IMG/VR virus record: IMGVR_UViG_3300046519_000323
Span: 24,040-88,039 of that record
DNA length: 64,000 bases
Source: a virus
Direction: 5' to 3' (one strand)
Part shown: positions 23,355 to 50,545 of the stretch, one piece after another
Position numbering within the stretch: position 1 is the first letter of the stretch
Layout: the number at the start of each line of letters is the position of its first letter
Notes under the pieces: generated by a model
Seen by the model: the letters and a program-made list of their open reading frames with translations, nothing else
Databases searched by the model: none
What the model was told of the DNA's origin: nothing
Program-made: the position numbers and the translations under genes

Positions 23355-23357
23355 TTC

Positions 23358-24332: not shown

Positions 24333-24349
24333 TGTTAAATCCTAAAAAA

Positions 24350-24631: not shown

Positions 24632-24869
24632 AAATGTATCTGAAATAACTTTTATGTATTAAAGGATGCAATAATATGCGGAAATGTATAAATGTTCAAT
24701 CTAAACGTATAAATGTAAGTACGATTCTGTCTACTGGTATTTGATACGCATAATGCATAAAATTGACTTGGGTTTATACATTAATGTAAAAAGTGTGGTA
24801 TACGTATCACATTCCAAGAATGTATTGATTCATTTATTAAATTATAATTTTATGACCAGAGGAACTAAG
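24632..24869. promoter_or_regulatory. divergent immunity-switch region with multiple ATRCAT/ATGYAT half-sites
   Basis: Contains ATACATTAATGTAA (24776..24789) and at least six further ATGTAT/ATGCAT/ATACGT half-sites between the cro-like and cI-like genes. Confidence 0.6.
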
Positions 24870-25580
24870 ATGTCGCATAGTCTTAACGAACTTAATAATA
24901 AGAATGAAAGTATTGGGGATAGAATCACTCGGCTTTTGCTTGAGAGAAAATCTGATCAATATCAATTAGCTAATGAATGTAAAACAACACAAGCGACTAT
25001 TAGTAGAATTATGAGCGGTAAGGTTAGTAATAGTAAATTTTTGCCAGCTATTGCACAGGCTCTTAACGTTTCTGTCGGTTATTTATTATTTGGCGGAGAA
25101 ACAGACGCTCAAGTCGAAGAATACAGTACAGAGCAATTGCGTATACATCAAAATGATTTTATGCTTATCCGCAAGTATGAGAACGTATTAGAAAATAATG
25201 AAGATACGCATACAAAAAAGAAAGCAGAGGACATGTTGATGTTAAAGAGTTTAATTCCGCCGGGGTCTACTTCAGAAGATTTACGTTACATTTTGGTTCA
25301 AGATCATTCAATGTCTCCGAAGATTCCAATAGACGCAAGGGTTTGTTTTACAACGAAAGAGACAACTGTTATCGCTGGTAAAGCATATGCTATTAAGTAT
25401 GGTTCACTAGACGAACAGATTCGTTATTTATACCCTCAACCTGATGGCGGATTACGTATCCGTGTAACACCAGAGCAATCAGATGAGTTTCCAGAAATGA
25501 TCGTTCCGCCCACTGAGATCAAGGAAAAAATCTTTAAAGTGCTTGGTAGGGTTTTTAGTGTTACAAGCTCTTGGATTTAA
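24870..25580 (+). CDS. CI-like repressor (XRE HTH + S24 LexA-type peptidase domain)
   Basis: Trimmed to the ATG at 24870 (MSHSLNELNN) after GAGGAA. HTH QLANECKTTQATISRIMSG. The C-terminal part has HSMSP (Ser) and KVLGRV (Lys), typical of S24. Confidence 0.75.
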   Translation: MSHSLNELNNKNESIGDRITRLLLERKSDQYQLANECKTTQATISRIMSGKVSNSKFLPAIAQALNVSVGYLLFGGETDAQVEEYSTEQLRIHQNDFMLIRKYENVLENNEDTHTKKKAEDMLMLKSLIPPGSTSEDLRYILVQDHSMSPKIPIDARVCFTTKETTVIAGKAYAIKYGSLDEQIRYLYPQPDGGLRIRVTPEQSDEFPEMIVPPTEIKEKIFKVLGRVFSVTSSWI

Positions 25581-25600
25581 AATAATTTTTATAATCAATC

Positions 25601-25625
25601 AACGGGCGAAAAAGCCCGTTTTTTA
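25601..25625 (+). terminator. rho-independent terminator
   Basis: AACGGGC gaaaaa GCCCGTT followed by TTTTT. Confidence 0.75.
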
Positions 25626-25795
25626 TTGCCTAATACATTGAAAAATACGAAAAAATACAATGTTTTTAATTTTTTTGCGTTTTTTACAAATATTTACTAA
25701 AACTCTCGGGTATCTTTTTTACGTTTTTATGCATACTTGCATAATTATATACAGAAGTGTATATTTTGAATTATTCTTTATGTGGAATTAAAAGC

Positions 25796-26137
25796 ATGCA
25801 AAAAATAATCGATGTAAGTGAAAATAACCCTGAAGACCTGAATCATTTAACAGCTTCCCCTGCATCTCTTAATCAATTAAGAGATAAAGCAAAGTTCATA
25901 CTCGGCTTAGCTTTGGAAGTTGAGAAGTCTATTCGTAATTTAATGACCGCCCTCTTCGCTATTCGTATCGTCCAAATACTTACCTCTTTTGTGATTGTCA
26001 CTGCCTTGTTCTATGCATTTCTCATTTACGGTGTAGATGCCCAAGAAACAGAAAATCAAGGTCGCTATCAGGCTAATCAGAAATACATTCAATTGGTTGA
26101 GGCTAAAAACCCAGAGGGAATATATATTTCTAAGTAA
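25796..26137 (+). CDS. membrane protein
   Basis: Trimmed to MQKIIDVSENN.... Hydrophobic stretch ALFAIRIVQILTSFVIVTALFYAFLIYGV. Confidence 0.45.
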   Translation: MQKIIDVSENNPEDLNHLTASPASLNQLRDKAKFILGLALEVEKSIRNLMTALFAIRIVQILTSFVIVTALFYAFLIYGVDAQETENQGRYQANQKYIQLVEAKNPEGIYISK

Positions 26138-26190
26138 ATGTTCATTTGAACAAATAAACAAATGAACAAATGAACAAATGAACAAATGAA
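26138..26190. repeat. TGAACAAA octamer array, including four direct 8-bp repeats (AAATGAAC)
   Basis: aaatgttcatttgaacaaataaacaaatgaacaaatgaacaaatgaacaaatgaa. Confidence 0.7.
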
Positions 26191-26211
26191 TATAATAGGT
26201 TGCATTTTTAT

Positions 26212-26508
26212 ATGGCTCAACGTGAAAGTATAGTTTGTCCGGCTTGTGGCAATAGATTGTTTTATGCCTTGGAAGTAAGGGTTTTACAAAAGCGTTTAGT
26301 AGACCCTAAAACTGGGGCTCTTATGAAGAGAATCTCATCTAATGTTCTACCTACAGAATATGAAGAACATTTGTTATGTGAAAGTGAACAATGTCTTTTT
26401 GTAATAACCAAAGGCAACAATGATTATCACAATTACATGCATCTTTTTGATAAACCAAATACCTCTGATCTTAGTGTTTTCAAAAAAGCTGTATACACAA
26501 TTTTTTAA
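26212..26508 (+). CDS. zinc-ribbon protein
   Basis: Trimmed to MAQRESIVCPACGNRLF.... A second Cys pair lies at CESEQC. Confidence 0.45.
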   Translation: MAQRESIVCPACGNRLFYALEVRVLQKRLVDPKTGALMKRISSNVLPTEYEEHLLCESEQCLFVITKGNNDYHNYMHLFDKPNTSDLSVFKKAVYTIF

Positions 26509-26510
26509 TA

Positions 26511-26655
26511 AGTTCATTTGTTCAAATGAACAAATGTTCAAATAAACATTAACGGTACATTCTATTTTATTTAATCTGCAGGTTTGAGATTGCTCAAATA
26601 GATTGGTGAACATACAAACATTTGAACAAATGAACATTTGTTCAAAGGAACATTA
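26511..26655. repeat. two TGAACA/TGTTCA clusters upstream of erf
   Basis: 26511..26550 (agttcatttgttcaaatgaacaaatgttcaaataaacatt) and 26607..26655 (gaacatacaaacatttgaacaaatgaacatttgttcaaaggaaca). Confidence 0.65.
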
Positions 26656-26668
26656 GATAGGTGATTTT

Positions 26669-27400
26669 ATGCAAACTGGATTTAACTTAAATAATAATCT
26701 TGCTAGTGACTTACGTGGTGTACAGGTTGTACATGCAATTGCTGCGGTTCATAAAGTTCTTGTAAAAATGGGTATAGCTAAATCTCGCCGTACAAATAGC
26801 ACAAACACAAAATTTACGAACTATAATTTTCGTAGTATTGATGATATGTATAACGTCATTTCGCCTTTGATGGCCGAGAATGGACTTTTATGTATTCCCA
26901 CTGTAAAAGATACCAAAATTACAGAAAATAAAAATCAACACGGCGGTATTGCCCGTCATGCAGTTGTCACGGTTTCATATAATTTTATTAGTGTTGATGA
27001 TGCTTCGATCATTACTGCAGAAATGGTGGGGGAAGCAATTGACACTGCTGATAAAGCCATAAGTAAAGCTTTAAGTATGGCTCAAAAAGGGCTTTTTGAG
27101 CAGGCATTCTCTATACCGACAAGACCTTTTACGAATGATGTTTCTCAACAATCGTTCCAGCGTGAACAAACTCAATTACCGAATAACGCACCAAACCCTT
27201 TACGCAATTTAAATGCTCCTGACTATCATGAATTAGATGCTTTTATAAATTTATTGGGCTCTATTGGTTGTAGCTTTGAACGTTTTCTTAAACAACGTAG
27301 CATCACAGAAAATCAAATTACCCGTGAAGTGCTGAAACAAGAAACAATTAATATCGAGAAATATTTGAACCAACAAGGTGCGCCAACCCACCAATACTAA
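26669..27400 (+). CDS. erf: ERF-family single-strand annealing recombinase
   Basis: YNFRSIDDMYNVISPLMAENGL and GEAIDTADKAISKALSMAQKGLFEQAFSIPT match conserved ERF blocks. Confidence 0.75.
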   Translation: MQTGFNLNNNLASDLRGVQVVHAIAAVHKVLVKMGIAKSRRTNSTNTKFTNYNFRSIDDMYNVISPLMAENGLLCIPTVKDTKITENKNQHGGIARHAVVTVSYNFISVDDASIITAEMVGEAIDTADKAISKALSMAQKGLFEQAFSIPTRPFTNDVSQQSFQREQTQLPNNAPNPLRNLNAPDYHELDAFINLLGSIGCSFERFLKQRSITENQITREVLKQETINIEKYLNQQGAPTHQY

Positions 27401-27410
27401 CCTTTCTTTA

Positions 27411-27477
27411 ATGAACATTTGTTCAAATGAACAAATGTTCATTTGATTAAAAGAACGTTTGAACTATTGAACATATG
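27411..27477. repeat. TGAACA/TGTTCA array upstream of parA (candidate parS/operator)
   Basis: atgaacatttgttcaaatgaacaaatgttcatttgattaaaagaacgtttgaactattgaacatatg. Confidence 0.6.
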
Positions 27478-27625
27478 AAGTTAATCGGTACAATACCTGA
27501 AAATACTTCTTTTAAAGGGCAGTGCCTTACTTCTCTTAGATATTAAACATATTCGTTCTGGCCCGATCTACTTGTAAATAATGATCTAAAGCCGAACTAT
27601 CATATAAATAAATTGGATTTAAGAT

Positions 27626-28264
27626 ATGACGACAAAATATATCTCAACGCTTCAGCTGAAGGGCGGGGCGGGTAAAACTACAATCGCAAGTAATCTTATT
27701 GGTTATTTCCTTTCTAAAAATAAAAAAGTCTTGGGCGTTGATGCCGATATGCAACAAGGTACTTTGCATGCCTGGTCAAAACTTTTTAAACACCCTAAAT
27801 TTGAATGTGTAGGGGTTAACAGTCTTGAAGAGTTAATTTCTGTTCTTCGTGAGGCTCAAGAAAAATTTGATATCGTTATTACTGACCTACCTCCGCGGCT
27901 AGCTGATATTGCACGATCAAGTTTAGTTTTTAGTGATGTCGTTTTGATTCCCGTTGCTATTTCATCGCCTGATGTTTGGGCTGCTATGGACTTAACAAAA
28001 CTTATTGAAGCTGCCAAAAGCGAAAGCGATAACGCAAAGGTTCGCATGGTATGGAATAGGTTTAAACCAACTAAACGCAAAATTGAGGCTAAAGAAGAAG
28101 TAAAGCAGCTTCTAGGGCACGATGAAATTAAACAATATATTTCTGACTATGTAGCTTATTCCGATGTGCTGGGTTTAGGTACTTGGGTGGGGGAACATAA
28201 TCACGAAAAAGCTAAAACAGAATTTTTGGCCTTTGCCAAAGAAGTAGAAAAGTTAATTAAGTGA
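27626..28264 (+). CDS. parA: ParA partition ATPase
   Basis: Deviant Walker A KGGAGKTT, plus the DAD and DLPP motifs. Confidence 0.85.
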   Translation: MTTKYISTLQLKGGAGKTTIASNLIGYFLSKNKKVLGVDADMQQGTLHAWSKLFKHPKFECVGVNSLEELISVLREAQEKFDIVITDLPPRLADIARSSLVFSDVVLIPVAISSPDVWAAMDLTKLIEAAKSESDNAKVRMVWNRFKPTKRKIEAKEEVKQLLGHDEIKQYISDYVAYSDVLGLGTWVGEHNHEKAKTEFLAFAKEVEKLIK

Positions 28265-28277
28265 AACGGTAATTTTT

Positions 28278-28544
28278 ATGACTAAAGCAAAGATGAATTT
28301 TGTAAAACCTACAGGTGAAGAAAAACCTCAAAATGACCGTTTTGGGGCTGCAGTTGAGTTTGCAAAGGCTTCAAAAGAAGTTGTTGAAGGCTCTAAAGAT
28401 GAAGCGCGTGAAAATTGGGATTGCCCCAATAATTTACGTAAAGAGCTTAAGCAGTTTGTTGCAGGTTCGACGCGTTTCGCAACTAAGAAAGAGTTTTTAA
28501 CACAGTGTTTAATTGATGGATTAAAGAACTATAAAGGTCAATGA
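28278..28544 (+). CDS. ParG/ParB-like small centromere-binding protein (ribbon-helix-helix C-terminus)
   Basis: 88 aa directly after parA. The C-terminal NLRKELKQFVAGS...KKEFLTQCLIDGLK pattern is RHH-like. Confidence 0.55.
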   Translation: MTKAKMNFVKPTGEEKPQNDRFGAAVEFAKASKEVVEGSKDEARENWDCPNNLRKELKQFVAGSTRFATKKEFLTQCLIDGLKNYKGQ

Positions 28545-29224
28545 AAAAGGCTATCGGTTATGTCCGTGTTAGTACGGAAAAACAAGTAAGCGAAGGTGTT
28601 TCTATTGACGCACAGGTTGAGCGTATTAAAGCATGGGCGCTAATTAATGATTATGAACTTGTCGAGGTTTACTTTGATGAGGGTATTTCTGGTGCGACCT
28701 TTTCTAAACGTGAAGGCATTAATAAAGCTTTAGCGAATGTTGAAAAAGGTATGGCATTTGTTTGCTATAGCTTAAGTCGTGTAAGTCGTCATCTTGAAGA
28801 TACCTTGATGATTGGCAAAATTATTCAGAATGCTGGCGCCGATCTTGTAAGCCTTACTGAGCAAATTGATACAACAACTGCTTCAGGCAAAATGATTTTT
28901 AATCTCTTTGGGGTTTTGAATCAATTTGAACGAGATCAGGTTGCTGAGCGTACACGTACGGCCATGCAATTCTTGAAAGCTAATAATAAAGCTTATACTC
29001 ATCCGCCATATGGCTTTGATCGTCGTGGCGATGACTTTGTTGAAAATGAGGCTGAGAAACGAGTCATTGAATTGATGCTTGAGCTTAGGCAAAAAGGTTA
29101 CGGTCACCGAAAAATAGCAACCCATCTTAATAAAAATGCAATTTATGCAAAAAATGGCGGGTTGTGGCATCCAAAAACCGTAAAAGGTGTATTAGATCGT
29201 ATTGAAGGTGTTAAAACAGAATGA
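28541..29224 (+). CDS. serine recombinase (resolvase-type, with a short recombinase-domain remnant)
   Basis: Catalytic AIGYVRVSTEKQ, then SRVSR and LFGVLNQFERD. The tail PPYGF...GLWHPKTVKGVL resembles the start of the large-serine-recombinase domain, but the protein is only 227 aa. Confidence 0.8.
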   Translation: MKKAIGYVRVSTEKQVSEGVSIDAQVERIKAWALINDYELVEVYFDEGISGATFSKREGINKALANVEKGMAFVCYSLSRVSRHLEDTLMIGKIIQNAGADLVSLTEQIDTTTASGKMIFNLFGVLNQFERDQVAERTRTAMQFLKANNKAYTHPPYGFDRRGDDFVENEAEKRVIELMLELRQKGYGHRKIATHLNKNAIYAKNGGLWHPKTVKGVLDRIEGVKTE

Positions 29225-41114: not shown

Positions 41115-41663
41115 TTATTTAGCCTGTACTGATTCAATAATTTGTTGCATTAATTGGTAGGTTTTTGGAGCTCGCCAAGCCGAATCTTCTGGGTAGTTAG
41201 ATTCTTCCTTAAATAAGGCTTCTAGTTGGTCCCATTGGGCAATTAGTGCTGCCCATACTGAAGATACTTTTGCCATGTCTGACAGCTTCTCACGCAGCTC
41301 AGGGACAGCATCTAAAAGCTTTATGCAACGACTTAGATCAGCTGGGTCCCGTGGGTAATCCTTCGCCGTACTTAATGGGCTGACATTCATCAATGTGACA
41401 GCCATACAGATACTTGATAGACCTGTTCGGCCTGTAGCGAACCAGCGAATAACCTTCTCAAAACTCTCTACATTTCTGTAAAGCTCGAAATAGGTTGGAG
41501 CTTGTATATAGAAGTGTTTACGAGCAATATCATCGCTTACCGTAACAACATCTAAATTCTGCTTTGCTGCAGCAATACGTGTTTGTCTGTTGAACTTTGT
41601 CTTTGAACCGATTTCAACAACTTGACCGCTTGTATCCATAGTCATTACAGAGGTGCCATTCAT
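41115..41663 (-). CDS. hypothetical protein
   Basis: 182-aa ORF. Confidence 0.5.
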   Translation of the reverse strand: MNGTSVMTMDTSGQVVEIGSKTKFNRQTRIAAAKQNLDVVTVSDDIARKHFYIQAPTYFELYRNVESFEKVIRWFATGRTGLSSICMAVTLMNVSPLSTAKDYPRDPADLSRCIKLLDAVPELREKLSDMAKVSSVWAALIAQWDQLEALFKEESNYPEDSAWRAPKTYQLMQQIIESVQAK

Positions 41664-42259
41664 ACGGTTGCCTCCTTTTTATTACTAAAGAAGGTTTCGA
41701 CCATGGCTTTTTGAAAGGACTTAATATATTCCTCAAGTTGGGTAAATTCGGGATTTATTTTTTTGCTAAATACTGAACTTTCATACCAATTTGAATCAAA
41801 AAGTTTTTCAAAAAACTCGAAAGTAGATTCATTGTGATACATGAAATCCATACTTAAGCATTGCTCGTTATTGATAACGGCATCATATGCATTACGTATG
41901 ATTTCCTTAAAATCAAAATCGTTATCTTCAGCATTAAACAAAAGCTCTTTGATACGTTCTCGATATTCGCTGTATATAGACTTAAAGAAATTATCGATAT
42001 CTGTATCATCAATCTGATAAGGCTTTTTAAATAGTTTTTCGACTAGATAACATGGTGTTGCAGTAGCAAGAAATCGCTTTAATGGCATACCTGCATTAGC
42101 CCATGTGTGTGAACCAATATAATCATCATCGATATTAAAAATTGCTTTGCCGCTATGCTCGCCTGTAGGCATAACCATGACGGTTATAGGTAGACATAGT
42201 TCACGGTCAAAAAAGCTCAAAACTTCTTGAGTTGAAGACGAAAGATTATAATTTTTCAT
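41660..42259 (-). CDS. hypothetical protein, paralogue of 42246..42851
   Basis: Shares LKRFLATATPCYLVEKLF / LKQFLAETYPESLINRLF, FFEKLFDSNWYESS / ILNKIFGEDFWWSS and the C-terminal EEYIKSFQKA / QMIKEFQQYL blocks. Confidence 0.5.
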   Translation of the reverse strand: MKNYNLSSSTQEVLSFFDRELCLPITVMVMPTGEHSGKAIFNIDDDYIGSHTWANAGMPLKRFLATATPCYLVEKLFKKPYQIDDTDIDNFFKSIYSEYRERIKELLFNAEDNDFDFKEIIRNAYDAVINNEQCLSMDFMYHNESTFEFFEKLFDSNWYESSVFSKKINPEFTQLEEYIKSFQKAMVETFFSNKKEATV

Positions 42260-42851
42260 TAATTTGCCCCTTCAAATACTGTTGAAACTCCTTAATCATT
42301 TGAAGCTGATACTTATATGTTTCATTGTCTTTTTCAGGAGGGCTTGAAGACCACCAAAAGTCTTCACCAAAAATTTTATTTAAGATTGCATTGGTTTCTT
42401 CACTTAGGTCTTTACATGCGAGCTCAGGGTTTTCAAAACAAACGTCTAACAAATCAATGTAGACACTGCGTAGCTCTTTTTTAGATACTTCTTCTGAACG
42501 GCGTGCTTCAAATATTTGCGATCGACAATTTTGATATGCCCATTCTATTAACTCTTCGCCAGTTTCAACCGGTTCTTTACTACTAATACTGCCAAATAAC
42601 CGATTTATAAGACTTTCAGGATATGTTTCAGCTAAAAACTGTTTTAAAGTCGTGTTGTCGCCATTTGAGTAAAAAGCTGTTCCAACGCAATCAGGCAGGA
42701 TGATAGTAATGCGGCCACCGCCTGTACTTCCGTACTTAAAGCTTTCATCATTTGGTTCAATGATGGCTTTCAGCCATTCCTGACCATTAAGCATCTTGGT
42801 CAAAGTGATGCATTCAATGAGCTGCGTCTTTGCTTCAATTTTATTTGTCAT
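42246..42851 (-). CDS. hypothetical protein, paralogue of 41660..42259
   Basis: See the paralogue blocks listed for 41660..42259. Confidence 0.5.
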   Translation of the reverse strand: MTNKIEAKTQLIECITLTKMLNGQEWLKAIIEPNDESFKYGSTGGGRITIILPDCVGTAFYSNGDNTTLKQFLAETYPESLINRLFGSISSKEPVETGEELIEWAYQNCRSQIFEARRSEEVSKKELRSVYIDLLDVCFENPELACKDLSEETNAILNKIFGEDFWWSSSPPEKDNETYKYQLQMIKEFQQYLKGQINEKL

Positions 42852-43987: not shown

Positions 43988-44051
43988 TAAAATCCCCTTC
44001 TTACCTATTCTTTTTGAAGAATATACATTTGATACTAATGATGTATATATT

Positions 44052-44065
44052 ATGCATTAATGTAT
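44052..44065. promoter_or_regulatory. operator-like palindrome ATGCATTAATGTAT (ATRCAT family)
   Basis: 13/14 match to the family palindrome, in the divergent region between 43987 (minus-strand operon) and 44218 (plus-strand gene). ATATACAT...ATGTATAT arms lie at 44021..44048. Confidence 0.5.
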
Positions 44066-44217
44066 AATTTGTATAGTATAAAATGCATAAAATGTATATT
44101 TAATGATTAATTGTTAATTTTTAGCTGTATTTAAAACTTTAGAATTAGTAAGTAACAATTTGTTTTTCAATAACTTATAATCAATAAGTTAGGTAATAGA
44201 AAATAAAGAGCTTAGAC

Positions 44218-46062
44218 ATGACAAACATTAATGATTCTTTAAAATCGATGCGGGAAATCTTTTTAGAATGTAATTGGTCTTATGACCTTGAAGAGTATAA
44301 AAATTATAATTATTCATCTTTATGGACAAGCCTTTTCCAAGCTGCTTTTAAGATGAAAGAAGCAGGTAGAGAAGATCACTATCAGGTTCTAACATTACTC
44401 TCATTTATTGTTTCATTTCGTTTAACTACTGAGCGAATACATGAGCCTTTTAAATATGGTCCTGCAGACATTAATGAGGCTCTTGCTGAATTTAGGCCAG
44501 AAGGACCAATACAAGAAGATTTTGATTTTTTTGAATCTATTTTAGATGATATTGAACACCCTTTTTTAAGAGCACGTTTAGCCGATTTTCTCTGGATTTA
44601 TAAAAAACCGAAAAAACAGATATATGCTCATAAAGCAATAGATAGCTATACAGAATTGCCGATTGATCAGCGTTGGTATGAAGATATAAATCTATGTTGG
44701 GAAAGAGCAATAAGATTAGCTATTCAAATTAAAGATTCTGCCCGACTTGATAAAATTCATACTGAAATGTTCAGTGCTATAAAAAGAGAAATTTCTAATA
44801 CTGATTACATATTTTTAGCCCTCTCCATTGGTCAAATTCTTGATGCGCAGTTACTTGATAAACCTTATAGAAAGGACCTAGCAGAATTATATTTTACACA
44901 GGCTAAATCATTAGAAAGTAATCATTACTATGAAGCAGCACGGCAATATTATGAATTAGCTGCTAAAAAATATTATCAAATTAAGGATATGGATAGCCGA
45001 GGAAATGCATTGTGTGCCATCGCTAAATGTTATGAAAATGAGGCGGTAGGACATAAGCTTAAAATAGTGGCTAGTGATCTATATGAAAAAGCATTAGTTG
45101 CGTATCGAGCAATATCTAAAAAGGATAGAGAGCGATTAGGTTTAGAAGGAAAGATACAGGATATTCAAACTAAAATTATTGAGACTGGTAAAGCTTCCTT
45201 AGAGGATTTCATTTATCTACCTAATGAAAAGTTCGATGATACAGAGATTGTTGAACAAGTTAAAAACCAAATTTCGGGTAAAGCTGACCCTATAAATGCC
45301 TTAGAAACATTTGCCTCATTATGTTCTGAACCAGATTATGCATCGCTAGAGGGTCGGGCAAATGAGTTTTTTGATAAATCTTTCTTTGGTCGGATGTTCG
45401 GTGGAAAACATTATGAGCAAGATGGGCGAGTAATAGCTAAAACCCCGGCAATTAATACGGGCGAAAGTGTTGATAGCCCACAAAATCAAGATGCTTTAAG
45501 AGGGCAAATATTTAGAACTTATACAAATGATGTCTCATTGTTTGTTAAAAGTATTATTATGCCCGCATTAGATCAGCTCACCAGTGAACATCAGATTAAT
45601 AAAGAGCTGTTACGTCATATTTGCAAAGATGCACCAATTATTCCTGAGGACCGTTTAAATTTAATAGTGGAGGCACTTTGGTATGGTTTTGAATATGAAT
45701 TTGCTGCTGCGATTCACCTTGCTTGTCCACAATTAGAAAACATCGTTAGACAACAGTTAAAAGCAAAAGGCGCAATTACAGCAAATCACGATATAAATGG
45801 TATTGTAAATGAAGTGGGCCTAAGCACTTTAATGGAGCGACCTGAAGCACTAGAGGTATTTGGTCAAAATCTTACTTTTGAAATTCAATGTGTATTTACT
45901 GAATCGCTGGGCTTTAATTTAAGAAATAAGGTAGCTCATGGATTATTAAATGATGCTGAAGCATTCGACTCGACACAGTGTGTATATGCTTGGTACATGC
46001 TTTTAAGAATTATATTAAAGAATAGGCGCTTTAAAAAAATAAATTTTGAAGTAAGCGAATGA
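44218..46062 (+). CDS. large helical-repeat protein with C-terminal HEPN-type RNxxxH motif (DUF4209-like)
   Basis: 614 aa. GFNLRNKVAHGLLND (R-N-K-V-A-H encoded at 45922..45939) fits the HEPN Rx4-6H motif. TPR-like segments such as YYEAARQYYELAAKKYYQIKD. Conserved-looking PFLRARLADFLW. Confidence 0.6.
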   Translation: MTNINDSLKSMREIFLECNWSYDLEEYKNYNYSSLWTSLFQAAFKMKEAGREDHYQVLTLLSFIVSFRLTTERIHEPFKYGPADINEALAEFRPEGPIQEDFDFFESILDDIEHPFLRARLADFLWIYKKPKKQIYAHKAIDSYTELPIDQRWYEDINLCWERAIRLAIQIKDSARLDKIHTEMFSAIKREISNTDYIFLALSIGQILDAQLLDKPYRKDLAELYFTQAKSLESNHYYEAARQYYELAAKKYYQIKDMDSRGNALCAIAKCYENEAVGHKLKIVASDLYEKALVAYRAISKKDRERLGLEGKIQDIQTKIIETGKASLEDFIYLPNEKFDDTEIVEQVKNQISGKADPINALETFASLCSEPDYASLEGRANEFFDKSFFGRMFGGKHYEQDGRVIAKTPAINTGESVDSPQNQDALRGQIFRTYTNDVSLFVKSIIMPALDQLTSEHQINKELLRHICKDAPIIPEDRLNLIVEALWYGFEYEFAAAIHLACPQLENIVRQQLKAKGAITANHDINGIVNEVGLSTLMERPEALEVFGQNLTFEIQCVFTESLGFNLRNKVAHGLLNDAEAFDSTQCVYAWYMLLRIILKNRRFKKINFEVSE

Positions 46063-46068: not shown

Positions 46069-46092
46069 TGCCCTCTTTGTGAGGGCATTTTT
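46069..46092. terminator. bidirectional terminator between convergent genes
   Basis: TGCCCTC tttgt GAGGGCA followed by TTTTT. Confidence 0.7.
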
Positions 46093-46096: not shown

Positions 46097-46669
46097 TTAA
46101 TATTCTTGGACAGGTTCGCAAATCATTGATAAGAAATAATCAAATAATGCTTCTCTTTGATCTACTTCAAGCTTACTTATGAGTTGCGTTAAAGCCCCAT
46201 CAATTATAAATAGCAACAAGTTTGCATCTTGTAGAGTTGTAGTAGAGTTGTAAGACCTAATCATTTTATGAATTTCATGAACTAACCATTTCCTATAATC
46301 TGTGATTGTTGTGTAAGCTTCAGGGTACTCATTTTTTATCTCAAATATTCCCTTAAATAATAAAAAGTAATCACTCTTAATATCTGCATGAAGGAAAAAA
46401 ACTTGTTTGAGCTGATCTATTACAGATATATCTGTAGATAAATGCGCTGCTGACATGACTTGTACTTTTAATTTTTCGCTTTTAAAAATTAAACAGGTTG
46501 TTATGAGCTTTTCTTTTTTTGGGAAATACTTATAAAGGGTCATTTTTGAAACATCAGATTCATTTGCAATTGTATTTACCCCTGTGTTATGAAAACCAAG
46601 TTCTGTAAAAAAATTGCAAGATGTCTCGATTAAATTAAGTATTTTTTCTGTACGCAGTAAATTTGCCAT
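46097..46669 (-). CDS. TetR-family transcriptional regulator
   Basis: Trimmed to MANLLRTEKILNLIE.... HTH GFHNTGVNTIANESDVSKMTLYKYFPKKEKLI. Confidence 0.8.
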   Translation of the reverse strand: MANLLRTEKILNLIETSCNFFTELGFHNTGVNTIANESDVSKMTLYKYFPKKEKLITTCLIFKSEKLKVQVMSAAHLSTDISVIDQLKQVFFLHADIKSDYFLLFKGIFEIKNEYPEAYTTITDYRKWLVHEIHKMIRSYNSTTTLQDANLLLFIIDGALTQLISKLEVDQREALFDYFLSMICEPVQEY

Positions 46670-46885
46670 ACATCTAACACCTTTAATATGTACCATTAAT
46701 TAATACGAATTGACGTGATGGTCTTTCTAAATATCAAAAAAATGGCATGCAAAAGTTCATTGAGTTGCGATTAAACACCTCAAAACTTAAAAGAAATTTT
46801 AAAAAATAGATTATTCAGAATTGATGACTTTTAATTGATCAACTCTAAAAGAATGTAATTATGTTGTATCTTTATATTGAATATG

Positions 46886-47125
46886 CATGGCGGTAGTCCT
46901 CCATTATTTCTAATAGAAAATCTGCCATGAATTTATAAATTGGTGGCAGAACGAAAGAGGGTTGACAGACTGGGCAAGACACCAGCACACATAAATGTGT
47001 CCCTCTCCCGTCCTACCGCTACGAGAGGGGACGAGAAGCACACACAAAATTAATCCTCAGAAAGAATTAATTCTGATGCTGTCTTGCACAACGAGGTCTG
47101 TCAAAACCTCCTGGCTTGGGGCCAG
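46886..47125. ncRNA. candidate structured RNA (or DNA structure): GC-rich island of nested helices, class unknown
   Basis: About 50% GC by hand count over 46941..47130, against very AT-rich flanks. Complementary pairs: 46886-93/46922-29, 46962-70/47096-104, 46974-81/47080-87, 46999-47007/47023-32, 47048-54/47066-72 and 47111-15/47121-25. Confidence 0.35.
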
Positions 47126-47258
47126 ACTGAGAAGAATAAAGAGAGGTTATAAAACTGTCAATAAACTATATTTTTTTAATTGTAAAAAAAAATTGAAAAT
47201 AAATAAATACTTAACAATTCAAATGCCTGTTAATTGAACGTAACCCTTTTTATTAAAT

Positions 47259-47433: not shown

Positions 47434-48729
47434 ATGGAAAAAAAGGTTTATGCACTCGCTGATATTAACAACGCTTATTGTAGTTGTGAGCGGGTTTTTA
47501 ACCCTCAGTTACTTGGTAAGCCATTGATTATATTAAGTAATAATGATGGTTGTGCAATAAGTCGCTCAGACGAAGCCAAAAATATAGGCATCAAGATGGG
47601 GGTGCCACTTTTCAAACTTAAAGAAATTATTAAAGAACATAATGTGATTGTTCACTCGAGCAATTTTCCGGTCTATGCGGAAATGTCACGGCGATTTTAT
47701 AATGTTCTTGCTGAGTTTGTTGGTGAAAAAGAATTAGAAATTTATTCAATTGATGAGTGTTTTCTTGATTTAACTACTTTTCAAACATTACACGACTTAA
47801 CTGAATATGCTCGAACGATGAAAAACCAAGTATATCAATACCTTGGTTTACCAATTTGCATCGGAATTGGTCGCTCCAAAACGGAGGCCAAGCTCGCCAA
47901 TTTTATAGCTAAAAAGAATAAACATTACAAAGGTATATGTAATTTATTAGACATCGATTTAACCAATCTTGAATCAATCTATCAATCAATTCCTATCGAA
48001 GAGGTTTGGGGCATAGGTTCACAGCATGCAAAAAAGTTACGTACGCTTGGGTTTAATACTGTTTATGATTTGGCCATAAATGCAAATCCGCAGCACATAC
48101 AACAACTATTTTCAGTCGTAGTTAAACGCACCGTGCTCGAGCTGCAAGGAACAGCTTGTATTGAGCTTGAACATACAAAGCCTGATCAGAAGCAAATCGT
48201 TTGTTCCCGTGCATTTGGCCGACCTGTAATGAATATTGATGATTTAGGTGAAGCCATATCTCTCTACACTCAAATTGCAGTGCGTAGACTAAGGAAGCAG
48301 GGTTTACTTTGCGGTACCATTACAACATTTGCACATTCAAACCCGTTTGATGAAAACGTAAAGTTTTTTAGAAGTACAGCCTCAATTGGATTACCCGTAC
48401 CTACTGATAGCGCTATGCTTTTAGTAAAGGCAGCAATGCATACTCTGCCCAAATTATTTAAAGAAGATATAGCATTTAAAAAATGTGGTGTGTTACTTAC
48501 TGCGTTGGAACCAAAAACAGGTTTTATTCATGACTTACTAGTTGATATTGATTTAATTGAACAACAAGAAAACTTAATGAAAGCATTTGATAAAATTACT
48601 GAGCGTTTTGGAAAGAAAAAAATCGGTATTGGCAGTTGCACCCTACCCGATCGAAACTGGTCAATGAATCAGCAATATAAATCTCAAAACTATTTTAGTT
48701 TAGAGGGTCTACCATTAATTAATAATTAA
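47434..48729 (+). CDS. umuC: Y-family translesion DNA polymerase V catalytic subunit UmuC
   Basis: Collinear with E. coli UmuC: ALADINNAYCSCERVF, LSNNDGC, YSIDECFLDL, VWGIGS, and the C-terminal W-x-M...Y block. Confidence 0.9.
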   Translation: MEKKVYALADINNAYCSCERVFNPQLLGKPLIILSNNDGCAISRSDEAKNIGIKMGVPLFKLKEIIKEHNVIVHSSNFPVYAEMSRRFYNVLAEFVGEKELEIYSIDECFLDLTTFQTLHDLTEYARTMKNQVYQYLGLPICIGIGRSKTEAKLANFIAKKNKHYKGICNLLDIDLTNLESIYQSIPIEEVWGIGSQHAKKLRTLGFNTVYDLAINANPQHIQQLFSVVVKRTVLELQGTACIELEHTKPDQKQIVCSRAFGRPVMNIDDLGEAISLYTQIAVRRLRKQGLLCGTITTFAHSNPFDENVKFFRSTASIGLPVPTDSAMLLVKAAMHTLPKLFKEDIAFKKCGVLLTALEPKTGFIHDLLVDIDLIEQQENLMKAFDKITERFGKKKIGIGSCTLPDRNWSMNQQYKSQNYFSLEGLPLINN

Positions 48730-48841
48730 TTAAAACCAAAAGTATTATTCAAGTTTCATATTTAATAAAAATAACAAAGCTATTTTGAGCGGTTTGATAT
48801 TATGCACCTTTGCATATTAACAATAACGAGACTTTCTTATA

Positions 48842-49381
48842 ATGGCTACGCCGTATATTACGATTGGCTGCCCCACAACTGGCGGCGGTCAAGTGATTTC
48901 AGGGAATAACATGTTCCTGATTGAAGGCATTCCCGTTGCTTGTGTTGGTGACAAAGCTACCTGCCCCACTCATAAAATTGTAGCAACGATTGTATCTGGT
49001 GATCCGTACATGCAGATTTTTGGTAAATCTGCAGCACGTGTAAATGATTCCCTTTCTTGTGGTTGTAAACTCCTACCAAAGCAAAATTTAGTTGTTCAAG
49101 ATAACGGCGGTGGTGCGGCGCAAAGTTCTCAAGCCAATAATGCACAAGATAGCTTTGTGCCTCAAACCGATGAACATGGGCTCAAATATCAACTTAAAGA
49201 CCAAGAGACTGGTAAACCTCTCGCTCAACAATACTTTAAATTGAAAGGTCCAGACGGTACCGAGATTGAAGGATTTACAGATAAAAGCGGTTATACAGAA
49301 CTAATAAAAACAGGTACAGAAGCAAAAGAAGTCGATTTAACTACTTTTGATCTTTCGAAACCGATGGCAGAGTGGAATTAA
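48842..49381 (+). CDS. PAAR-domain protein with ~85-aa C-terminal extension
   Basis: GIPVACVGDKATCPTH and GKSAARVNDSLSCGC are PAAR-repeat-like (AxxGD/ND...C, SAAR). Gly/Gln linker, then an extra domain. Confidence 0.7.
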   Translation: MATPYITIGCPTTGGGQVISGNNMFLIEGIPVACVGDKATCPTHKIVATIVSGDPYMQIFGKSAARVNDSLSCGCKLLPKQNLVVQDNGGGAAQSSQANNAQDSFVPQTDEHGLKYQLKDQETGKPLAQQYFKLKGPDGTEIEGFTDKSGYTELIKTGTEAKEVDLTTFDLSKPMAEWN

Positions 49382-49383
49382 GA

Positions 49384-50082
49384 ATGGCAGATAGTAATTT
49401 AGGAAACCCGTATAGACGTCATATACCGGGCTCATCCCCTGCATGGGACGCTTACCCTCAAGAGCAAAAGGTTTGTGATATTACCGAACCCCTTTGTAAC
49501 TCTCATATTAAAATTAGAAATTACTCGATGGTAAGACCCTATAATTTTATGATGAGCGCGCATCACTGGGCTCAAGTAGCAGACAATACTATTGAATTAC
49601 TTATGGCGGTACGCTTTGGGATGGAATGGGATGTTAATAAACTTCCTGATAGTAATATCGCTGACCCTGCTTTTCACACTAGAATGTATATTAAGTTCCA
49701 TAATTATTTATTAAAACATTCGGTCAAAGAGATTCCCCGTATTGTTGGAGAATTTCAGAGTACGGCCTTTAAAGTACGCTTTCTAAGTACGTTTGCGGTC
49801 GATGAATTATTAGAATTACGTAATTTAAGTAAGTTCGATCAGGGCAAAGAAGTTTACTCAAAAATTGAAGATTTGAAAGATACTTTTTCAAAACTCGATG
49901 TAGCCTCAGCTTCCGAAGATTTAGCCTTGTTGCAAATGAATGACGGGCCTTTGCATATAAACAGAGACATGTTTAAAAAAGTCTTTAATCAAGATTTCAA
50001 CCCTAAAATGATTCAGATCATGAAACAAAATAGAGAATATCCAGGAGACCCGACTAATGTTATCAGTAAAGGCTTCTATTAA
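49384..50082 (+). CDS. hypothetical protein (candidate cargo/effector of the PAAR protein)
   Basis: Trimmed to MADSNLGNPY..., starting 2 nt after the PAAR stop. No motif recognised. Confidence 0.5.
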   Translation: MADSNLGNPYRRHIPGSSPAWDAYPQEQKVCDITEPLCNSHIKIRNYSMVRPYNFMMSAHHWAQVADNTIELLMAVRFGMEWDVNKLPDSNIADPAFHTRMYIKFHNYLLKHSVKEIPRIVGEFQSTAFKVRFLSTFAVDELLELRNLSKFDQGKEVYSKIEDLKDTFSKLDVASASEDLALLQMNDGPLHINRDMFKKVFNQDFNPKMIQIMKQNREYPGDPTNVISKGFY

Positions 50083-50086
50083 GTAC

Positions 50087-50545
50087 ATGAAACCACTTCT
50101 AATAACCTTAGTGTTGATGGTTAGTGGTTGTGCAAATACACAAGTAAACAACGATAAAGAAGCCTTAAAAAATGCAACACGTGGCGCTGTTGGCATGGTA
50201 TTGCTTGATCATCATATGTATAAGAATGCTATAGCGAGCGGTAATAATGCAGTTACTCAGTCAATGCTTGCGTCAACTTTATTGAAAGCGGGTATTTTAA
50301 AAACTTATGAGAAAGAGGTAGGTGACGGTTATACGATTGAGTCAAGCTTACCGTTAGCAAAGTTAAATAAGCTTTGTTGGATGGGTAAATTTGTTCAGCA
50401 CTATAAAAACGATATACCCGCAGAAGCCTTGCCAGCATATAAAGATACACTTGTATGGCTAGATTCAAAGCAAGCCAATTTGTTAAAGAAACTCAATGAG
50501 TCATATAAGAAAGATGAACTCGGTGATGATGATTGCCGTAAATAG
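50087..50545 (+). CDS. lipoprotein (candidate immunity/exclusion protein)
   Basis: Trimmed to MKPLLITLVLMVSGCANTQ, with lipobox L-M-V-S-G-C. Starts 4 nt after the upstream stop. Confidence 0.65.
   Translation: MKPLLITLVLMVSGCANTQVNNDKEALKNATRGAVGMVLLDHHMYKNAIASGNNAVTQSMLASTLLKAGILKTYEKEVGDGYTIESSLPLAKLNKLCWMGKFVQHYKNDIPAEALPAYKDTLVWLDSKQANLLKKLNESYKKDELGDDDCRK

What the first reader, a model, noticed from the sequence alone, without database searches (positions are those of the whole stretch)
44218..46062. 614-aa helical-repeat protein with a C-terminal HEPN RNxxxH motif: candidate single-gene abortive-infection/defence effector
- Seen: it is a monocistronic plus-strand gene with its own promoter region and terminator.
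- The C-terminal segment ESLGFNLRNKVAHGLLND carries R-N-K-V-A-H (45922..45939). This is the Rx4-6H signature of HEPN RNases, including the polar residue after the Arg.
- I recall the same NLRNxxAHG signature as the hallmark of DUF4209.
- The first ~450 aa are TPR-like or helical repeats (for example YYEAARQYYELAAKKYYQIKD), suited to a sensor role.
- Established: HEPN domains are the killing module of many Abi, toxin-antitoxin and CRISPR-associated systems.
- No antitoxin-like partner is visible. The neighbour is a convergent TetR.
- Inference: a prophage-encoded, sensor-gated RNase that protects the lysogen from other phages. To my knowledge this architecture has not been characterised as a defence system, but I cannot check the literature here.
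Basis: partly seen in the sequence, partly recalled or inferred. Interest (0 to 1): 0.7.

Follow-up and report, generated by a model that had tools for sequence, protein, structure and literature searches.

The report
Catalogued, untested HEPN phage-defence candidate gene

Summary
The ORF (44218..46062, 614 aa) and its RNKVAH motif are real. The protein matches Pfam DUF7380 + DUF4209 and, over its full length, PADLOC's PDC-S39 (E 3.5e-198). PDC-S39 is one of 145 explicitly untested candidates (Payne 2024). DUF4209 was assigned to the HEPN RNases in 2013.

In 41 homologues (28-93% identity) R569, N570 and H574 are invariant, as is E507-x3-R511 on the preceding helix. Foldseek found no HEPN neighbour, so fold-level evidence is inconclusive.

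Context supports defence. Relatives sit in the P2 gpA-gpQ hotspot, inside DISARM operons, in ICE cargo next to RM genes, and on many plasmids. No partner gene is conserved family-wide.

In four Acinetobacter lineages the gene stays next to a C4-antisense-RNA->TetR cassette. That cassette also occurs widely without DUF4209, sometimes beside other defence genes.

Verdict: a new member of a known candidate family. The mechanism is inferred and no experimental test was found.

The parts
44020..44100 (.). Cluster of ATGTATA/TATACAT (4 copies) and ATGCAT (2 copies) motifs in the AT-rich upstream region; candidate operator, function unknown
   Evidence: 4 copies within about 75 bp against 0.36 per kb in the whole window. 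Imperfect inverted repeats. Conserved in the A. baumannii plasmid orthologue. Absent upstream of the chromosomal homologue L089.
44152..44181 (+). Sigma70-like promoter candidate (GTAACA-18-TATAAT) for the DUF4209 gene
   Evidence: a consensus match only. The region is about 89% identical to the A. baumannii plasmid orthologue.
44218..46062 (+). 614-aa DUF7380 + DUF4209 protein = PADLOC PDC-S39 family, the candidate HEPN effector
   Evidence: dN/dS 0.15-0.27.
44248..44751 (+). N-terminal DUF7380 domain (aa 11-178), helical, with invariant R120, D123 and W126; putative sensor or regulatory part
   Evidence: E 1.3e-31; invariant columns; helices.
44758..45207 (+). Middle helical-repeat (TPR-like) region (aa 181-330), the least conserved part of the protein
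   Evidence: weak TPR-type matches; 22% identity to distant members against 49% in the HEPN core.
45736..45750 (+). E507-x3-R511, the second HEPN active-site motif (Ex3[KR]) on predicted helix 495-516
   Evidence: Invariant in 41 sequences. Helix position. Criterion taken from Anantharaman 2013.
45733..46008 (+). DUF4209 (Pfam PF13910) domain, aa 506-597; the predicted HEPN core spans roughly aa 477-605
   Evidence: C-terminal model pLDDT 93.1, pTM 0.88. Most conserved region of the protein.
45922..45939 (+). R569-N-K-V-A-H574, the Rx4H HEPN motif with N after the Arg
   Evidence: R569, N570, A573, H574 and G575 invariant.
46069..46087 (.). Bidirectional intrinsic-terminator-like hairpin (7-bp stem, 5 GC pairs) between the gene and TetR
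46097..46696 (-). TetR-family regulator (likely true start M10 at 46669); conserved neighbour in the Acinetobacter clade
   Evidence: TetR_N. (42-93% identity to the TetRs next to DUF4209 homologues). (alternative start).
46859..46902 (-). GGAGG RBS (46898..46902) and a 9-codon ORF (46859..46888, MHIQYKDTT) between C4 and TetR, in the position icd occupies in P1
   Evidence: Short ORFs are seen at the same place in L089 and L098 (read by eye).
46939..47023 (-). C4-type antisense RNA; hypervariable hairpin-2 loop UGUCUUGC at 46974..46981
   Evidence: Rfam RF01695, 56.4 bits against a 45-bit gathering score. Fold. Loop coordinates.
47080..47087 (-). GCAAGACA, an exact complement of the C4 hairpin-2 loop, 64 nt upstream of C4 in the same leader
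   Evidence: Covariation across 65 cassettes: 72% have a complement of at least 7 nt against 2.3% in mismatched controls.
47133..47161 (-). Sigma70-like promoter (TTGACA-17-TATTCT) of the C4-TetR leader
   Evidence: TTGACA and the -10 region are conserved in all five aligned contexts.

Best explanation
The gene encodes a member of the DUF7380-DUF4209 (PADLOC PDC-S39) family: a roughly 600-aa, almost all-helical protein whose C-terminal domain is a HEPN-type, metal-independent RNase. It is carried as accessory cargo on a roughly 85-kb Acinetobacter phage-plasmid, next to that element's C4-RNA/TetR regulatory cassette.

Proposed mechanism (inferred, not shown): the protein is made in cells carrying the element from its own promoter and is held inactive. 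There is only one Rx4H motif per chain, so two HEPN domains must come together to form an active site. The N-terminal DUF7380 and the variable helical-repeat region would keep the enzyme latent and sense an infection cue. On infection by another phage, the sensor permits HEPN pairing and the enzyme cleaves RNA (tRNA, mRNA or rRNA). Translation stops and the infection is aborted, which protects sister cells carrying the phage-plasmid.

Shown here: family membership, motif invariance, purifying selection, and mobile or defence-linked contexts. Inferred: RNase activity, latency and gating, the trigger, and protection of the host.
For: Family: Pfam DUF7380 (E 1.3e-31) and DUF4209 (E 2.6e-16). PADLOC PDC-S39, full length, E 3.5e-198. 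phrog_31613, full length.

HEPN sequence criteria from Anantharaman 2013 are all met and invariant across 41 homologues at 28-93% identity: Rx4H (R569, H574), a polar N570 after the Arg, and E507-x3-R511 on the preceding long helix. A beta-hairpin insert (522-532) lies between predicted helices 2 and 3. That paper lists C6orf70/DUF4209 as a predicted active HEPN family, fused to TPR and occurring in R-M related operons.

The HEPN core is the most conserved region (49% against 22-24% for the middle region). dN/dS is 0.15-0.27. The family is large, with a conserved length of about 600 aa: 3,830 clusters at 50% identity.

Defence and mobile contexts:
- Between gpA and gpQ in a P2-like phage, which is the validated P2 defence hotspot. 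DUF4209 is system #13 there, with 193 occurrences.
- Embedded as DrmD-DrmMI-[DUF4209]-DrmA with overlapping stop and start codons.
- In ICE cargo beside an AAA_23 cluster, a methyltransferase, a PvuII-type RM system and a McrA-like HNH gene.
- Shedu, MADS and type IIG RM neighbours.
- 29 plasmid records, including a haloarchaeal plasmid.

No conserved partner: the commonest neighbour cluster occurs in only 6 of 76 loci.

Precedents: HepS, a prophage-encoded single HEPN protein with no antitoxin, is latent, is activated by phage tail-tip protein and cleaves tRNA anticodon loops. HEC-08, a DUF3644 HEPN protein found by embedding, gives defence that depends on the motif histidine.
Against: No experimental test of this family was found; Payne et al. 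call the PDC systems untested, and later papers only list PDC-S39 as a PADLOC hit.

Foldseek found no significant HEPN neighbour for a confident C-terminal model. Against the PDB the best E-value was 1.2, and the only HEPN-containing hit was Csm6 6tug_E (TMq 0.40, E 7.9). Nothing was found in BFVD. A profile search against PDB sequences found no HEPN chain.

Many homologues sit among ordinary genes with no defence neighbour, for example the A. baumannii and A. pittii chromosomal copies.

Rousset et al. report activity for three other P2-hotspot systems but not for DUF4209. Whether they cloned it could not be established.
Confidence: 0.6

Rival explanations
1. Guard or back-up nuclease for a DNA-modification-based system (PrrC-like logic). 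The protein is kept silent by binding a restriction/modification-type complex and is released when a phage anti-restriction factor disables that complex. The stand-alone copy on the phage-plasmid would guard an element- or host-encoded partner.
For: In L011, L052 and L061 the gene is embedded in DISARM-type operons between DrmMI and DrmA or other genes, with overlapping stop and start codons. A DrmD-like helicase cluster recurs in 6 of 76 loci. Anantharaman 2013 notes R-M related operons. Payne 2024 names PrrC as the archetype of an embedded system. The window's element carries two C5 cytosine methyltransferases.
Against: Most loci, including this window, have no adjacent RM, DISARM or BREX genes. 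The methyltransferases in the window are about 27 kb away. A family-wide obligate partner would be expected to co-occur and does not.
Confidence: 0.12
2. A regulated toxin that serves the phage-plasmid itself rather than defending against other phages, for example post-segregational killing or addiction, or host RNA shut-off during lytic growth. It would be controlled by the adjacent C4-RNA/TetR cassette.
For: The C4-TetR cassette stays next to the gene in four Acinetobacter lineages in three different arrangements, including what looks like a minimal three-part island in A. pittii. In P1 and P7, C4 is part of an immunity circuit. Carriage on plasmids is common.
Against: C4-TetR occurs in 80 metagenome loci without DUF4209, so it is not a dedicated partner. 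No C4-loop target that covaries was found in the DUF4209 5' region: the window and L086 share the 5' UTR but have different loops. No operator motif is shared. DUF4209 homologues outside this clade lack the cassette. Chromosomal, DISARM-embedded and ICE-cargo copies do not fit an addiction role.
Confidence: 0.12
3. A counter-defence or establishment factor of mobile elements: an RNase or RNA-binding protein that helps the incoming element overcome host immunity.
For: In K. pneumoniae IncF plasmids the gene lies near an antirestriction protein, umuDC and a methyltransferase. In the window it lies about 4.5 kb from genes with DarA_N/LPD3 and LPD1/InPase domains; from my own knowledge these resemble the P1 Dar antirestriction proteins.
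Against: Embedding inside DISARM operons and placement in the P2 and ICE defence-cargo slots are signatures of defence genes. No known anti-defence family matched. The gene is not linked to the Dar-like genes by strand or operon.
Confidence: 0.05
4. A non-catalytic or housekeeping helical scaffold or RNA-binding protein whose Rx4H motif serves ligand binding rather than cleavage, as in some non-nuclease HEPN relatives.
For: No HEPN fold match was obtained with Foldseek. Anantharaman 2013 describes HEPN families that are substrate-binding or regulatory (MtlR, NT-associated).
Against: Those non-catalytic families have lost the motif. Here R, N, H and the Ex3R motif are all invariant. The patchy distribution, borne on mobile elements, argues against a housekeeping role.
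Confidence: 0.05

Closest known systems
PADLOC phage defence candidate PDC-S39 (Payne et al. 2024 bioRxiv 10.1101/2024.01.29.577857) = Pfam DUF7380 (PF24098) + DUF4209 (PF13910)
   Same: Full-length match to the PDC-S39 model (E 3.5e-198, aa 1-602 of 614). Same two Pfam domains and a length of about 600 aa as all 43 close and 150 listed distant homologues. The DISARM embedding that motivated the PDC set is reproduced here.
   Different: Nothing structural; this is a member of the family. This copy is stand-alone on an Acinetobacter phage-plasmid and sits next to a C4-TetR cassette, a context I did not find described in the papers read.
C6orf70/ERMARD-type HEPN family (Anantharaman et al. 2013, PMC3710099)
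   Same: The paper equates this family with DUF4209, reports a conserved Rx4-6H motif, fusion to TPR, a 'bacteria > eukaryotes' distribution and occurrence in R-M related operons. All of this agrees with what is seen here.
   Different: According to that paper the eukaryotic proteins carry a transmembrane region and are predicted to act at the ER membrane. No such region was noted in the bacterial protein's all-helical model, though no transmembrane prediction was run. The bacterial protein carries the DUF7380 N-terminal domain.
HepS of Salmonella prophage Gifsy-1 (Sargen et al. 2026, PMC13043305)
   Same: A single HEPN protein encoded by a temperate phage, with no antitoxin or partner. It is latent by default and acts by abortive infection through a motif-dependent RNase (tRNA anticodon loops). 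It is located among accessory genes near the antirepressor region.
   Different: HepS homologues are under 250 aa and are solo HEPN domains with the motif at R100-H105. The window protein is 614 aa with large N-terminal domains and belongs to a different HEPN family. No sequence or Foldseek link to HepS was seen.
PrrC / RloC anticodon nucleases
   Same: HEPN-type RNase domains. PrrC is almost always embedded in type I RM operons, which parallels the DISARM-embedded DUF4209 copies.
   Different: From my own knowledge, PrrC and RloC have N-terminal ABC-type ATPase domains; the window protein matched no ATPase family. The window copy is not embedded in any RM system.
P1/P7 immI circuit (c4 antisense RNA - icd - ant)
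   Same: The neighbouring RNA matches Rfam C4 above the gathering score. It is preceded by a promoter and leader and followed by a short ORF with an RBS. Its variable loop has covarying complementary sites in its own transcript.
   Different: The protein gene downstream is a TetR-family regulator, not icd/ant. The cassette is multi-copy and mostly chromosomal in Acinetobacter-like genomes. Its relation to the DUF4209 gene is adjacency only.

Membership tests
PADLOC PDC-S39 | Full-length match to the family HMM (PDLC05012 / PDLC05011) | tested here: met
   E 3.5e-198, aa 1-602 against profile positions 1-599 of 615; second model E 2.3e-104.
PADLOC PDC-S39 | Occurrence of family members embedded in BREX, DISARM or type I RM operons (the 'guilt-by-embedding' criterion of Payne 2024) | tested here: met
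   For homologues, not for the window copy. L011 is DrmD-DrmMI-[DUF4209]-DrmA and L061 is DrmMI-[DUF4209]-PDC-S64. The criterion is described.
Pfam DUF4209 (PF13910) and DUF7380 (PF24098) | Score above Pfam's gathering threshold | tested here: met
   DUF4209 59.9 bits against 22.3; DUF7380 110.2 bits against 27.
HEPN superfamily | Conserved Rx4-6H motif with a polar residue (N, D or H) immediately after the Arg | tested here: met
   R569-N570-K-V-A-H574. R, N and H are invariant in 41 homologues. Criterion.
HEPN superfamily | Second conserved acidic residue in an Ex3[KR] motif on helix 2, N-terminal to the Rx4-6H motif | tested here: met
   E507-N-I-V-R511 is invariant and lies on predicted helix 495-516. 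Criterion.
HEPN superfamily | Four-helix up-down core of two alpha-hairpins, with an insert between helices 2 and 3 and the motif at the end of helix 3 or the start of the following loop | tested here: inconclusive
   The secondary-structure order fits: helices 477-491 and 495-516, hairpin insert 522-532, helix 542-561, the motif in short helix 568-573, then helix 586-605. The three-dimensional arrangement could not be inspected. Foldseek gave no significant HEPN hit; the best was Csm6 6tug_E at TMq 0.40, E 7.9.
HEPN superfamily | Profile-profile similarity to established HEPN families | not tested
   Anantharaman 2013 reports HHpred probabilities of 75-98% for its newly recognised HEPN families in general, DUF4209 among them; no family-specific value was seen. 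No HEPN reference alignment was available here. A profile search against PDB sequences found no HEPN chain.
HEPN superfamily | Metal-independent RNase activity that depends on the motif Arg and His | not testable with these tools
   Requires biochemistry.
Abortive-infection / anti-phage defence system | Reduces phage plating or causes infection-dependent growth arrest | not testable with these tools
   No experimental report was found. The PDC systems are described as untested.
Toxin-antitoxin pair | A conserved, co-occurring neighbouring antitoxin gene or RNA | tested here: not met
   Across 76 diverse loci the commonest neighbour cluster occurs in 6 loci and is a DISARM helicase. TetR and C4 are adjacent only in one Acinetobacter clade and occur widely without DUF4209.
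HepS family | Stand-alone HEPN protein of under 250 aa | tested here: not met
   The window protein is 614 aa with two further regions.
P1-type C4 antisense circuit (for the neighbouring cassette) | C4 RNA structure; loop complementarity to sites in its own operon; icd/ant downstream | tested here: inconclusive
   RNA: met (56.4 bits). Complementary sites: met upstream (72% against 2.3% in controls) and partly met downstream (14% against 1.5%). icd/ant: not met, since a short ORF and a TetR gene follow instead.

The most novel reading that the evidence does not exclude
The HEPN gene may not be a truly solitary system in Acinetobacter. It could be one of several alternative defence cargoes placed under, or beside, a previously undescribed regulatory cassette: promoter, then a leader with a covarying target site, then a C4-type antisense RNA, then a short ORF, then a TetR-family repressor. 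In this reading the cassette gates expression of the neighbouring defence gene, here DUF4209 and elsewhere RosmerTA, Tmn, Septu or retron genes. That would give the multi-copy 'Group 1' C4-like sRNAs of A. baumannii a function and a target.
Probability: 0.15. Interest if true: 0.7.

Novelty: new member of a known kind. Interest (0 to 1): 0.4.

Why it matters
The DUF7380-DUF4209 family is large: 3,830 clusters at 50% identity. It is spread over bacteria and at least one haloarchaeal plasmid (Natrinema), and the 2013 HEPN survey traces the DUF4209/C6orf70 family to eukaryotes. It is common cargo of validated defence hotspots. Even so, I found no experimental test of it.

Showing that it is a sensor-gated HEPN RNase would convert a database candidate into a real single-protein abortive-infection system. 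It would also bear on the uncharacterised eukaryotic ERMARD/C6orf70 proteins that share the domain.

For this window specifically, the gene is an ordinary member of that family, so the finding is a good candidate for a defence screen in Acinetobacter rather than a discovery.

The more unexpected by-product is the obligate C4-RNA->TetR cassette with loop and target covariation. It may explain what the abundant C4-like sRNAs of A. baumannii act on.

Tried and rejected
1. Fold confirmation. Foldseek on the full-length model returned only TPR-type solenoids at E about 1e-3. The C-terminal domain was re-modelled alone (pLDDT 93.1) and searched against the PDB and BFVD; nothing was significant. A profile search against PDB sequences found no HEPN chain. 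The result is inconclusive, not negative.

2. HepS identity: rejected. HepS is a solo HEPN protein of under 250 aa from a different family.

3. TetR as a family-wide partner: rejected. There were no TetR hits in any of the 80 diverse genome loci.

4. C4-TetR as a dedicated DUF4209 partner: rejected. Of 83 TetR loci, 71 carry C4 but only 2 carry DUF4209.

5. C4 acting as an antisense regulator of the DUF4209 mRNA: not supported. No complementary site in the 5' region covaries with the loop. The window and L086 share the 5' UTR but have different loops. Only short matches of 5-7 nt at the start codon were seen, in the window (by eye) and in L089.

6. A shared TetR operator between the DUF4209 promoter and the C4-TetR promoter, or with the chromosomal homologue: not found.

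7. Integrated prophage with att sites or a tRNA: no tRNA or tmRNA in the window, while Rep_3 and ParA are present. The element is a phage-plasmid.

8. Close DNA relatives in the phage and plasmid collections: none beyond short patches.

9. The exact fraction of neighbours that are defence genes could not be computed, because the batch scan reports only the 25 commonest families.
Full report
**1.

The ORF at 44218..46062 (+) encodes 614 aa, and the motif R569-N-K-V-A-H574 lies at 45922..45939. The gene is monocistronic:
- Upstream is a 229-bp AT-rich gap with a sigma70-like site at 44152..44181.
- Downstream, a bidirectional terminator-like hairpin at 46069..46087 separates it from a convergent TetR ORF.

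dN/dS of 0.15-0.27 against four orthologues shows the gene is under purifying selection.

**2. What the protein is.**

- Pfam finds DUF7380 (aa 11-178, E 1.3e-31) and DUF4209 (aa 506-597, E 2.6e-16), both well above the gathering thresholds.
- PADLOC-DB matches the whole protein to PDC-S39 (E 3.5e-198).
- PHROGs matches it to phrog_31613, a family of unknown function. NCBIfam has nothing.
- A word-indexed search gave 43 homologues at 30-93% identity, almost all with both Pfam domains (two truncated ones lack DUF4209).
- An exhaustive HMMER scan of 1.84 billion representatives gave 3,830 clusters at E <= 1e-3 and 797 at E <= 1e-30. The best 150 are nearly all about 600 aa and match over the full length.
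- Distant Bacillus and Xanthomonas plasmid members, which align only in the C-terminal 170 residues, are also about 581 aa.

**3. Is it a HEPN domain?**

Anantharaman et al. 2013 name DUF4209 (their C6orf70 family) as a newly recognised HEPN family. They describe it as predicted to be catalytically active, fused to TPR, 'bacteria > eukaryotes', and 'occurring in R-M related operons'.

The same paper gives explicit criteria: Rx4-6H at the end of helix 3, a polar N/D/H after the Arg, a second acidic residue in an Ex3[KR] motif on helix 2, an insert between helices 2 and 3, and a four-helix up-down core.

How the protein fares:
- In an alignment of 41 homologues (28-93% identity), R569, N570, A573, H574 and G575 are invariant, and so are P504, Q505, E507 and R511.
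- E507-x3-R511 lies on predicted helix 495-516.
- A beta-hairpin (522-532) follows, then helix 542-561, the motif in short helix 568-573, and helix 586-605.
- The HEPN core is the most conserved part: 49% identity to distant members against 22-24% in the middle region and 33% in DUF7380.

The sequence-level criteria are therefore met.

The fold-level test failed to give an answer. The full-length model (pLDDT 85) hit only TPR solenoids. A C-terminal model (pLDDT 93.1, pTM 0.88) had no significant neighbour in the PDB; the best E-value was 1.2, and the only HEPN-containing chain listed, Csm6 6tug_E, had TMq 0.40 at E 7.9. Nothing was found in BFVD. I treat the fold as unconfirmed rather than refuted.

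**4. What the literature says.**

- PDC-S39 comes from Payne et al. 2024. [quoted passage not shown]
- Two later papers merely list PDC-S39 as a PADLOC hit, in P. aeruginosa PAO1 and in an E. coli O157:H7 strain.
- No paper in the library mentions DUF7380. DUF4209 appears only in the 2013 paper, and a search for ERMARD with 'phage' gave nothing relevant.
- Rousset et al. 2022 define a defence hotspot in P2-like phages between gpA and gpQ. Their supplementary table lists DUF4209 as system #13 (193 occurrences) and system #55 (76 occurrences). It is not among the three newly validated systems.
- A close functional precedent is HepS (Sargen et al. 2026): a prophage-encoded single HEPN protein without an antitoxin, latent as a tetramer, activated by siphovirus tail-tip protein, and cleaving tRNA anticodon loops. 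HepS is under 250 aa and belongs to a different family.
- HEC-08, a DUF3644 HEPN protein found by embedding, gives defence that depends on the motif histidine.

**5. Contexts of homologues.**

- Phages. In the collection of 50,697 phage records, only P2-like coliphages carry relatives. In vB_EcoM-569R9 the gene lies exactly between gpA and gpQ.
- Diverse genomes. Across 80 loci from many phyla, neighbours are highly variable, and the commonest neighbour cluster occurs in only 6 of 76 loci. That cluster is a DISARM helicase. L011 reads DrmD-DrmMI-[DUF4209]-DrmA and L061 reads DrmMI-[DUF4209]-PDC-S64, with overlapping stop and start codons.
- Other neighbours include Shedu, MADS and type IIG RM genes, alongside housekeeping genes.
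- ICEs. In Enterobacter and Salmonella the gene follows TraG. It is flanked by an AAA_23 ATPase cluster with a methyltransferase, or by a PvuII-type RM system, plus a McrA-like HNH gene.
- Plasmids. 29 plasmid records carry it, including Klebsiella IncF plasmids and a Natrinema plasmid.

This supports an association with defence and mobile elements, and it shows there is no family-wide partner.

**6. The element in the window.**

It is not an integrated prophage:
- The window has no tRNA or tmRNA.
- It encodes a Rep_3 initiator, ParA, a resolvase, ERF, an S24/HTH repressor and two C5 methyltransferases.
- It also encodes tail, head, lysis and exonuclease genes.
- Downstream are large proteins with DarA_N/LPD3 and LPD1/InPase domains, which from my own knowledge resemble P1 Dar proteins.
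- Contigs carrying the identical protein are 66-88 kb.
- The 93%-identical homologue is on an 85,808-bp A. baumannii contig that NCBI labels a plasmid, and a 77% homologue is on an 84-kb A. seifertii contig with the same gene order.

The region between TetR and umuC varies between these relatives: a PAAR protein in the window and A. seifertii, against DUF4123 plus Tox-REase-5 in A. baumannii.

**7. The TetR neighbour is not incidental.**

Rfam finds a C4 antisense RNA at 46939..47023 (-), upstream of TetR on the same strand and preceded by a TTGACA-17-TATTCT promoter. The same trio of DUF4209, C4 and TetR recurs in four lineages:

| Lineage | Loci | DUF4209 identity to the window protein | Layout of TetR relative to DUF4209 |
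|---|---|---|---|
| Window-type phage-plasmids | window, L086, L103 | 100%, 93%, 77% | convergent |
| ~81-kb viral contigs | L106, L107 | 51-62% | convergent |
| A. baumannii chromosome | L089 | 53% | divergent, with C4 in the 718-bp gap |
| A. pittii chromosome | L098 | 43% | co-directional; the island seems to hold only these three parts |

The TetRs are 42-57% identical to one another outside the window group.

More distant DUF4209 loci lack both TetR and C4, including A. portensis and A. kookii.

The converse test was decisive. Among 83 loci fetched with the TetR alignment, 71 have C4 a few hundred nt upstream on the same strand. The 12 exceptions have less than about 290 nt of upstream sequence available. 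Only 2 of the 83, the viral contigs already known, have DUF4209 within 6 kb.

So C4->TetR is an obligate and widespread cassette, and DUF4209 is only one of its neighbours. The genes next to it elsewhere include RosmerTA RmrA, M78 peptidases, Tmn, Septu PtuA and a retron-type reverse transcriptase. They also include TonB receptors, aminotransferases and regulators.

**8. The C4 circuit is real.**

- All copies fold into a long closing stem plus two hairpins.
- The second loop is hypervariable. It has an exact complement 52-71 nt upstream of C4 in 47 of 65 cassettes (32 distinct loops), against 30 of 1,300 mismatched loop/leader pairs.
- In the window, the loop UGUCUUGC (46974..46981) pairs with GCAAGACA (47080..47087).
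- A downstream site of at least 7 nt occurs in 14% of cassettes against 1.5% of controls. In L089 that site overlaps the RBS of a short ORF, as in P1 c4->icd.
- In the window, a GGAGG RBS and a 9-codon ORF lie between C4 and TetR.

No covarying target exists in the DUF4209 5' region, and no operator is shared.

Weiss et al. 2016 described these RNAs as multi-copy, highly expressed, RNase P-processed 'Group 1' sRNAs of A. baumannii whose targets were unknown. The passages I read do not mention TetR or the upstream site.

**9. Interpretation.**

The most economical reading has two parts:
- The gene is an ordinary member of the PDC-S39 / DUF4209 HEPN candidate family, carried as accessory cargo on a phage-plasmid.
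- Its retained linkage to C4-TetR in one Acinetobacter clade reflects either a conserved accessory-gene slot beside a regulatory or immunity-like cassette (compare HepS near the Gifsy-1 antirepressor region) or real regulatory coupling. The present data cannot separate these two.

The mechanism is inferred from motif invariance, domain conservation and precedent; none of it is shown. That mechanism is a latent protein with one HEPN domain per chain, released by an infection cue sensed through the N-terminal helical regions, followed by RNA cleavage and abortive infection.

Rival readings remain possible: a PrrC-like guard of modification systems, a toxin serving the element itself, a counter-defence factor, or a non-catalytic protein. 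Each fits less of the evidence.

**10. Verdict.**

- Novelty is low for the gene itself, because it belongs to a catalogued but untested candidate family.
- Interest is moderate, because the family is large, sits in validated hotspots and has not been tested.

The C4->TetR cassette is the less expected result and deserves its own follow-up.

Noticed in passing
window 46097..47161 (-); also L086, L089, L098, L103, L106 and L114-L195: An obligate cassette of promoter, leader, C4-type antisense RNA, short ORF and TetR-family gene. It was found in 71 of 83 TetR loci, and the other 12 have truncated upstream sequence. The hypervariable C4 hairpin-2 loop covaries with a site 52-71 nt upstream: 72% have a complement of at least 7 nt against 2.3% in controls, across 32 distinct loops. 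This may identify the cis target and the downstream gene of the multi-copy 'Group 1' C4-like sRNAs of A. baumannii (Weiss 2016), whose targets were unknown.
   Followed up: yes
L153, L167, L184, L185 (upstream of TetR): Some cassettes carry two or three tandem C4-like copies upstream of one TetR gene, for example L167 at 430-515, 549-630 and 870-955.
   Followed up: no
window 14640..29224: Plasmid-type and regulatory genes inside a phage genome, marking the element as a phage-plasmid: Rep_3 initiator 17954..19216 (-), ParA 27626..28264 (+), resolvase 28541..29224 (+), ERF 26669..27400 (+), S24/HTH CI-like repressor 24741..25580 (+), and two C5 cytosine methyltransferases at 14640..16109 and 16490..17746 (-).
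   Followed up: partly
window 50582..55890 (-): Two large proteins with LPD1 + InPase domains (1028 aa) and DarA_N + LPD3 domains (738 aa). They resemble the P1 Dar antirestriction and head-internal proteins. In A. seifertii the second one is split into two genes.
   Followed up: no
window 47434..50545 (+); L086 13009..18893: A variable cargo region between TetR and the Dar-like genes. The window has a umuC-like Y-family polymerase with no adjacent umuD, a PAAR protein (48842..49381) and two further ORFs. The A. baumannii plasmid has DUF4123 + Tox-REase-5 (type VI secretion-type cargo) before umuC.
   Followed up: partly
window 47434..48729; L197 4883..6148; L199 1376..3072: A Y-family (UmuC-type) polymerase lies within a few kb of the DUF4209 gene on three unrelated replicons: the Acinetobacter phage-plasmid, B. 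cereus pBC33-1 and K. pneumoniae pINF281.9. This could be coincidence within plasmid cargo regions.
   Followed up: no
window 44020..44100: Four ATGTATA/TATACAT and two ATGCAT motifs are clustered upstream of the DUF4209 gene (background 0.36 per kb). They are conserved in the A. baumannii plasmid orthologue but absent from the chromosomal homologue's upstream region. Possibly an operator for an element-encoded regulator.
   Followed up: partly
window 41660..42851 (-): Two tandem paralogous ORFs (199 and 201 aa) of the Phage_phiTE_072 / phrog_3451 family, function unknown. They are conserved in all related phage-plasmids.
   Followed up: no
one or more loci in alignment set A3 (neighbours of DUF4209 homologues); the locus or loci were not identified: RtcB, RtcA (RTC) and RtcR each matched one protein among the 116 neighbour proteins scanned; the scan does not say whether they lie in the same locus. 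If they do, an RNA-repair operon that seals 2',3'-cyclic phosphate ends, the product type of HEPN RNases, sits next to a DUF4209 gene. It may be chance.
   Followed up: no
L094-L097 11859..15548 (-): In Enterobacter, a three-gene cluster (365 aa, 198 aa, and a 660-aa AAA_23 ATPase) stays next to DUF4209 in two different contexts, an ICE and a Tn3-flanked site. It could be a neighbouring defence system or a local partner.
   Followed up: no
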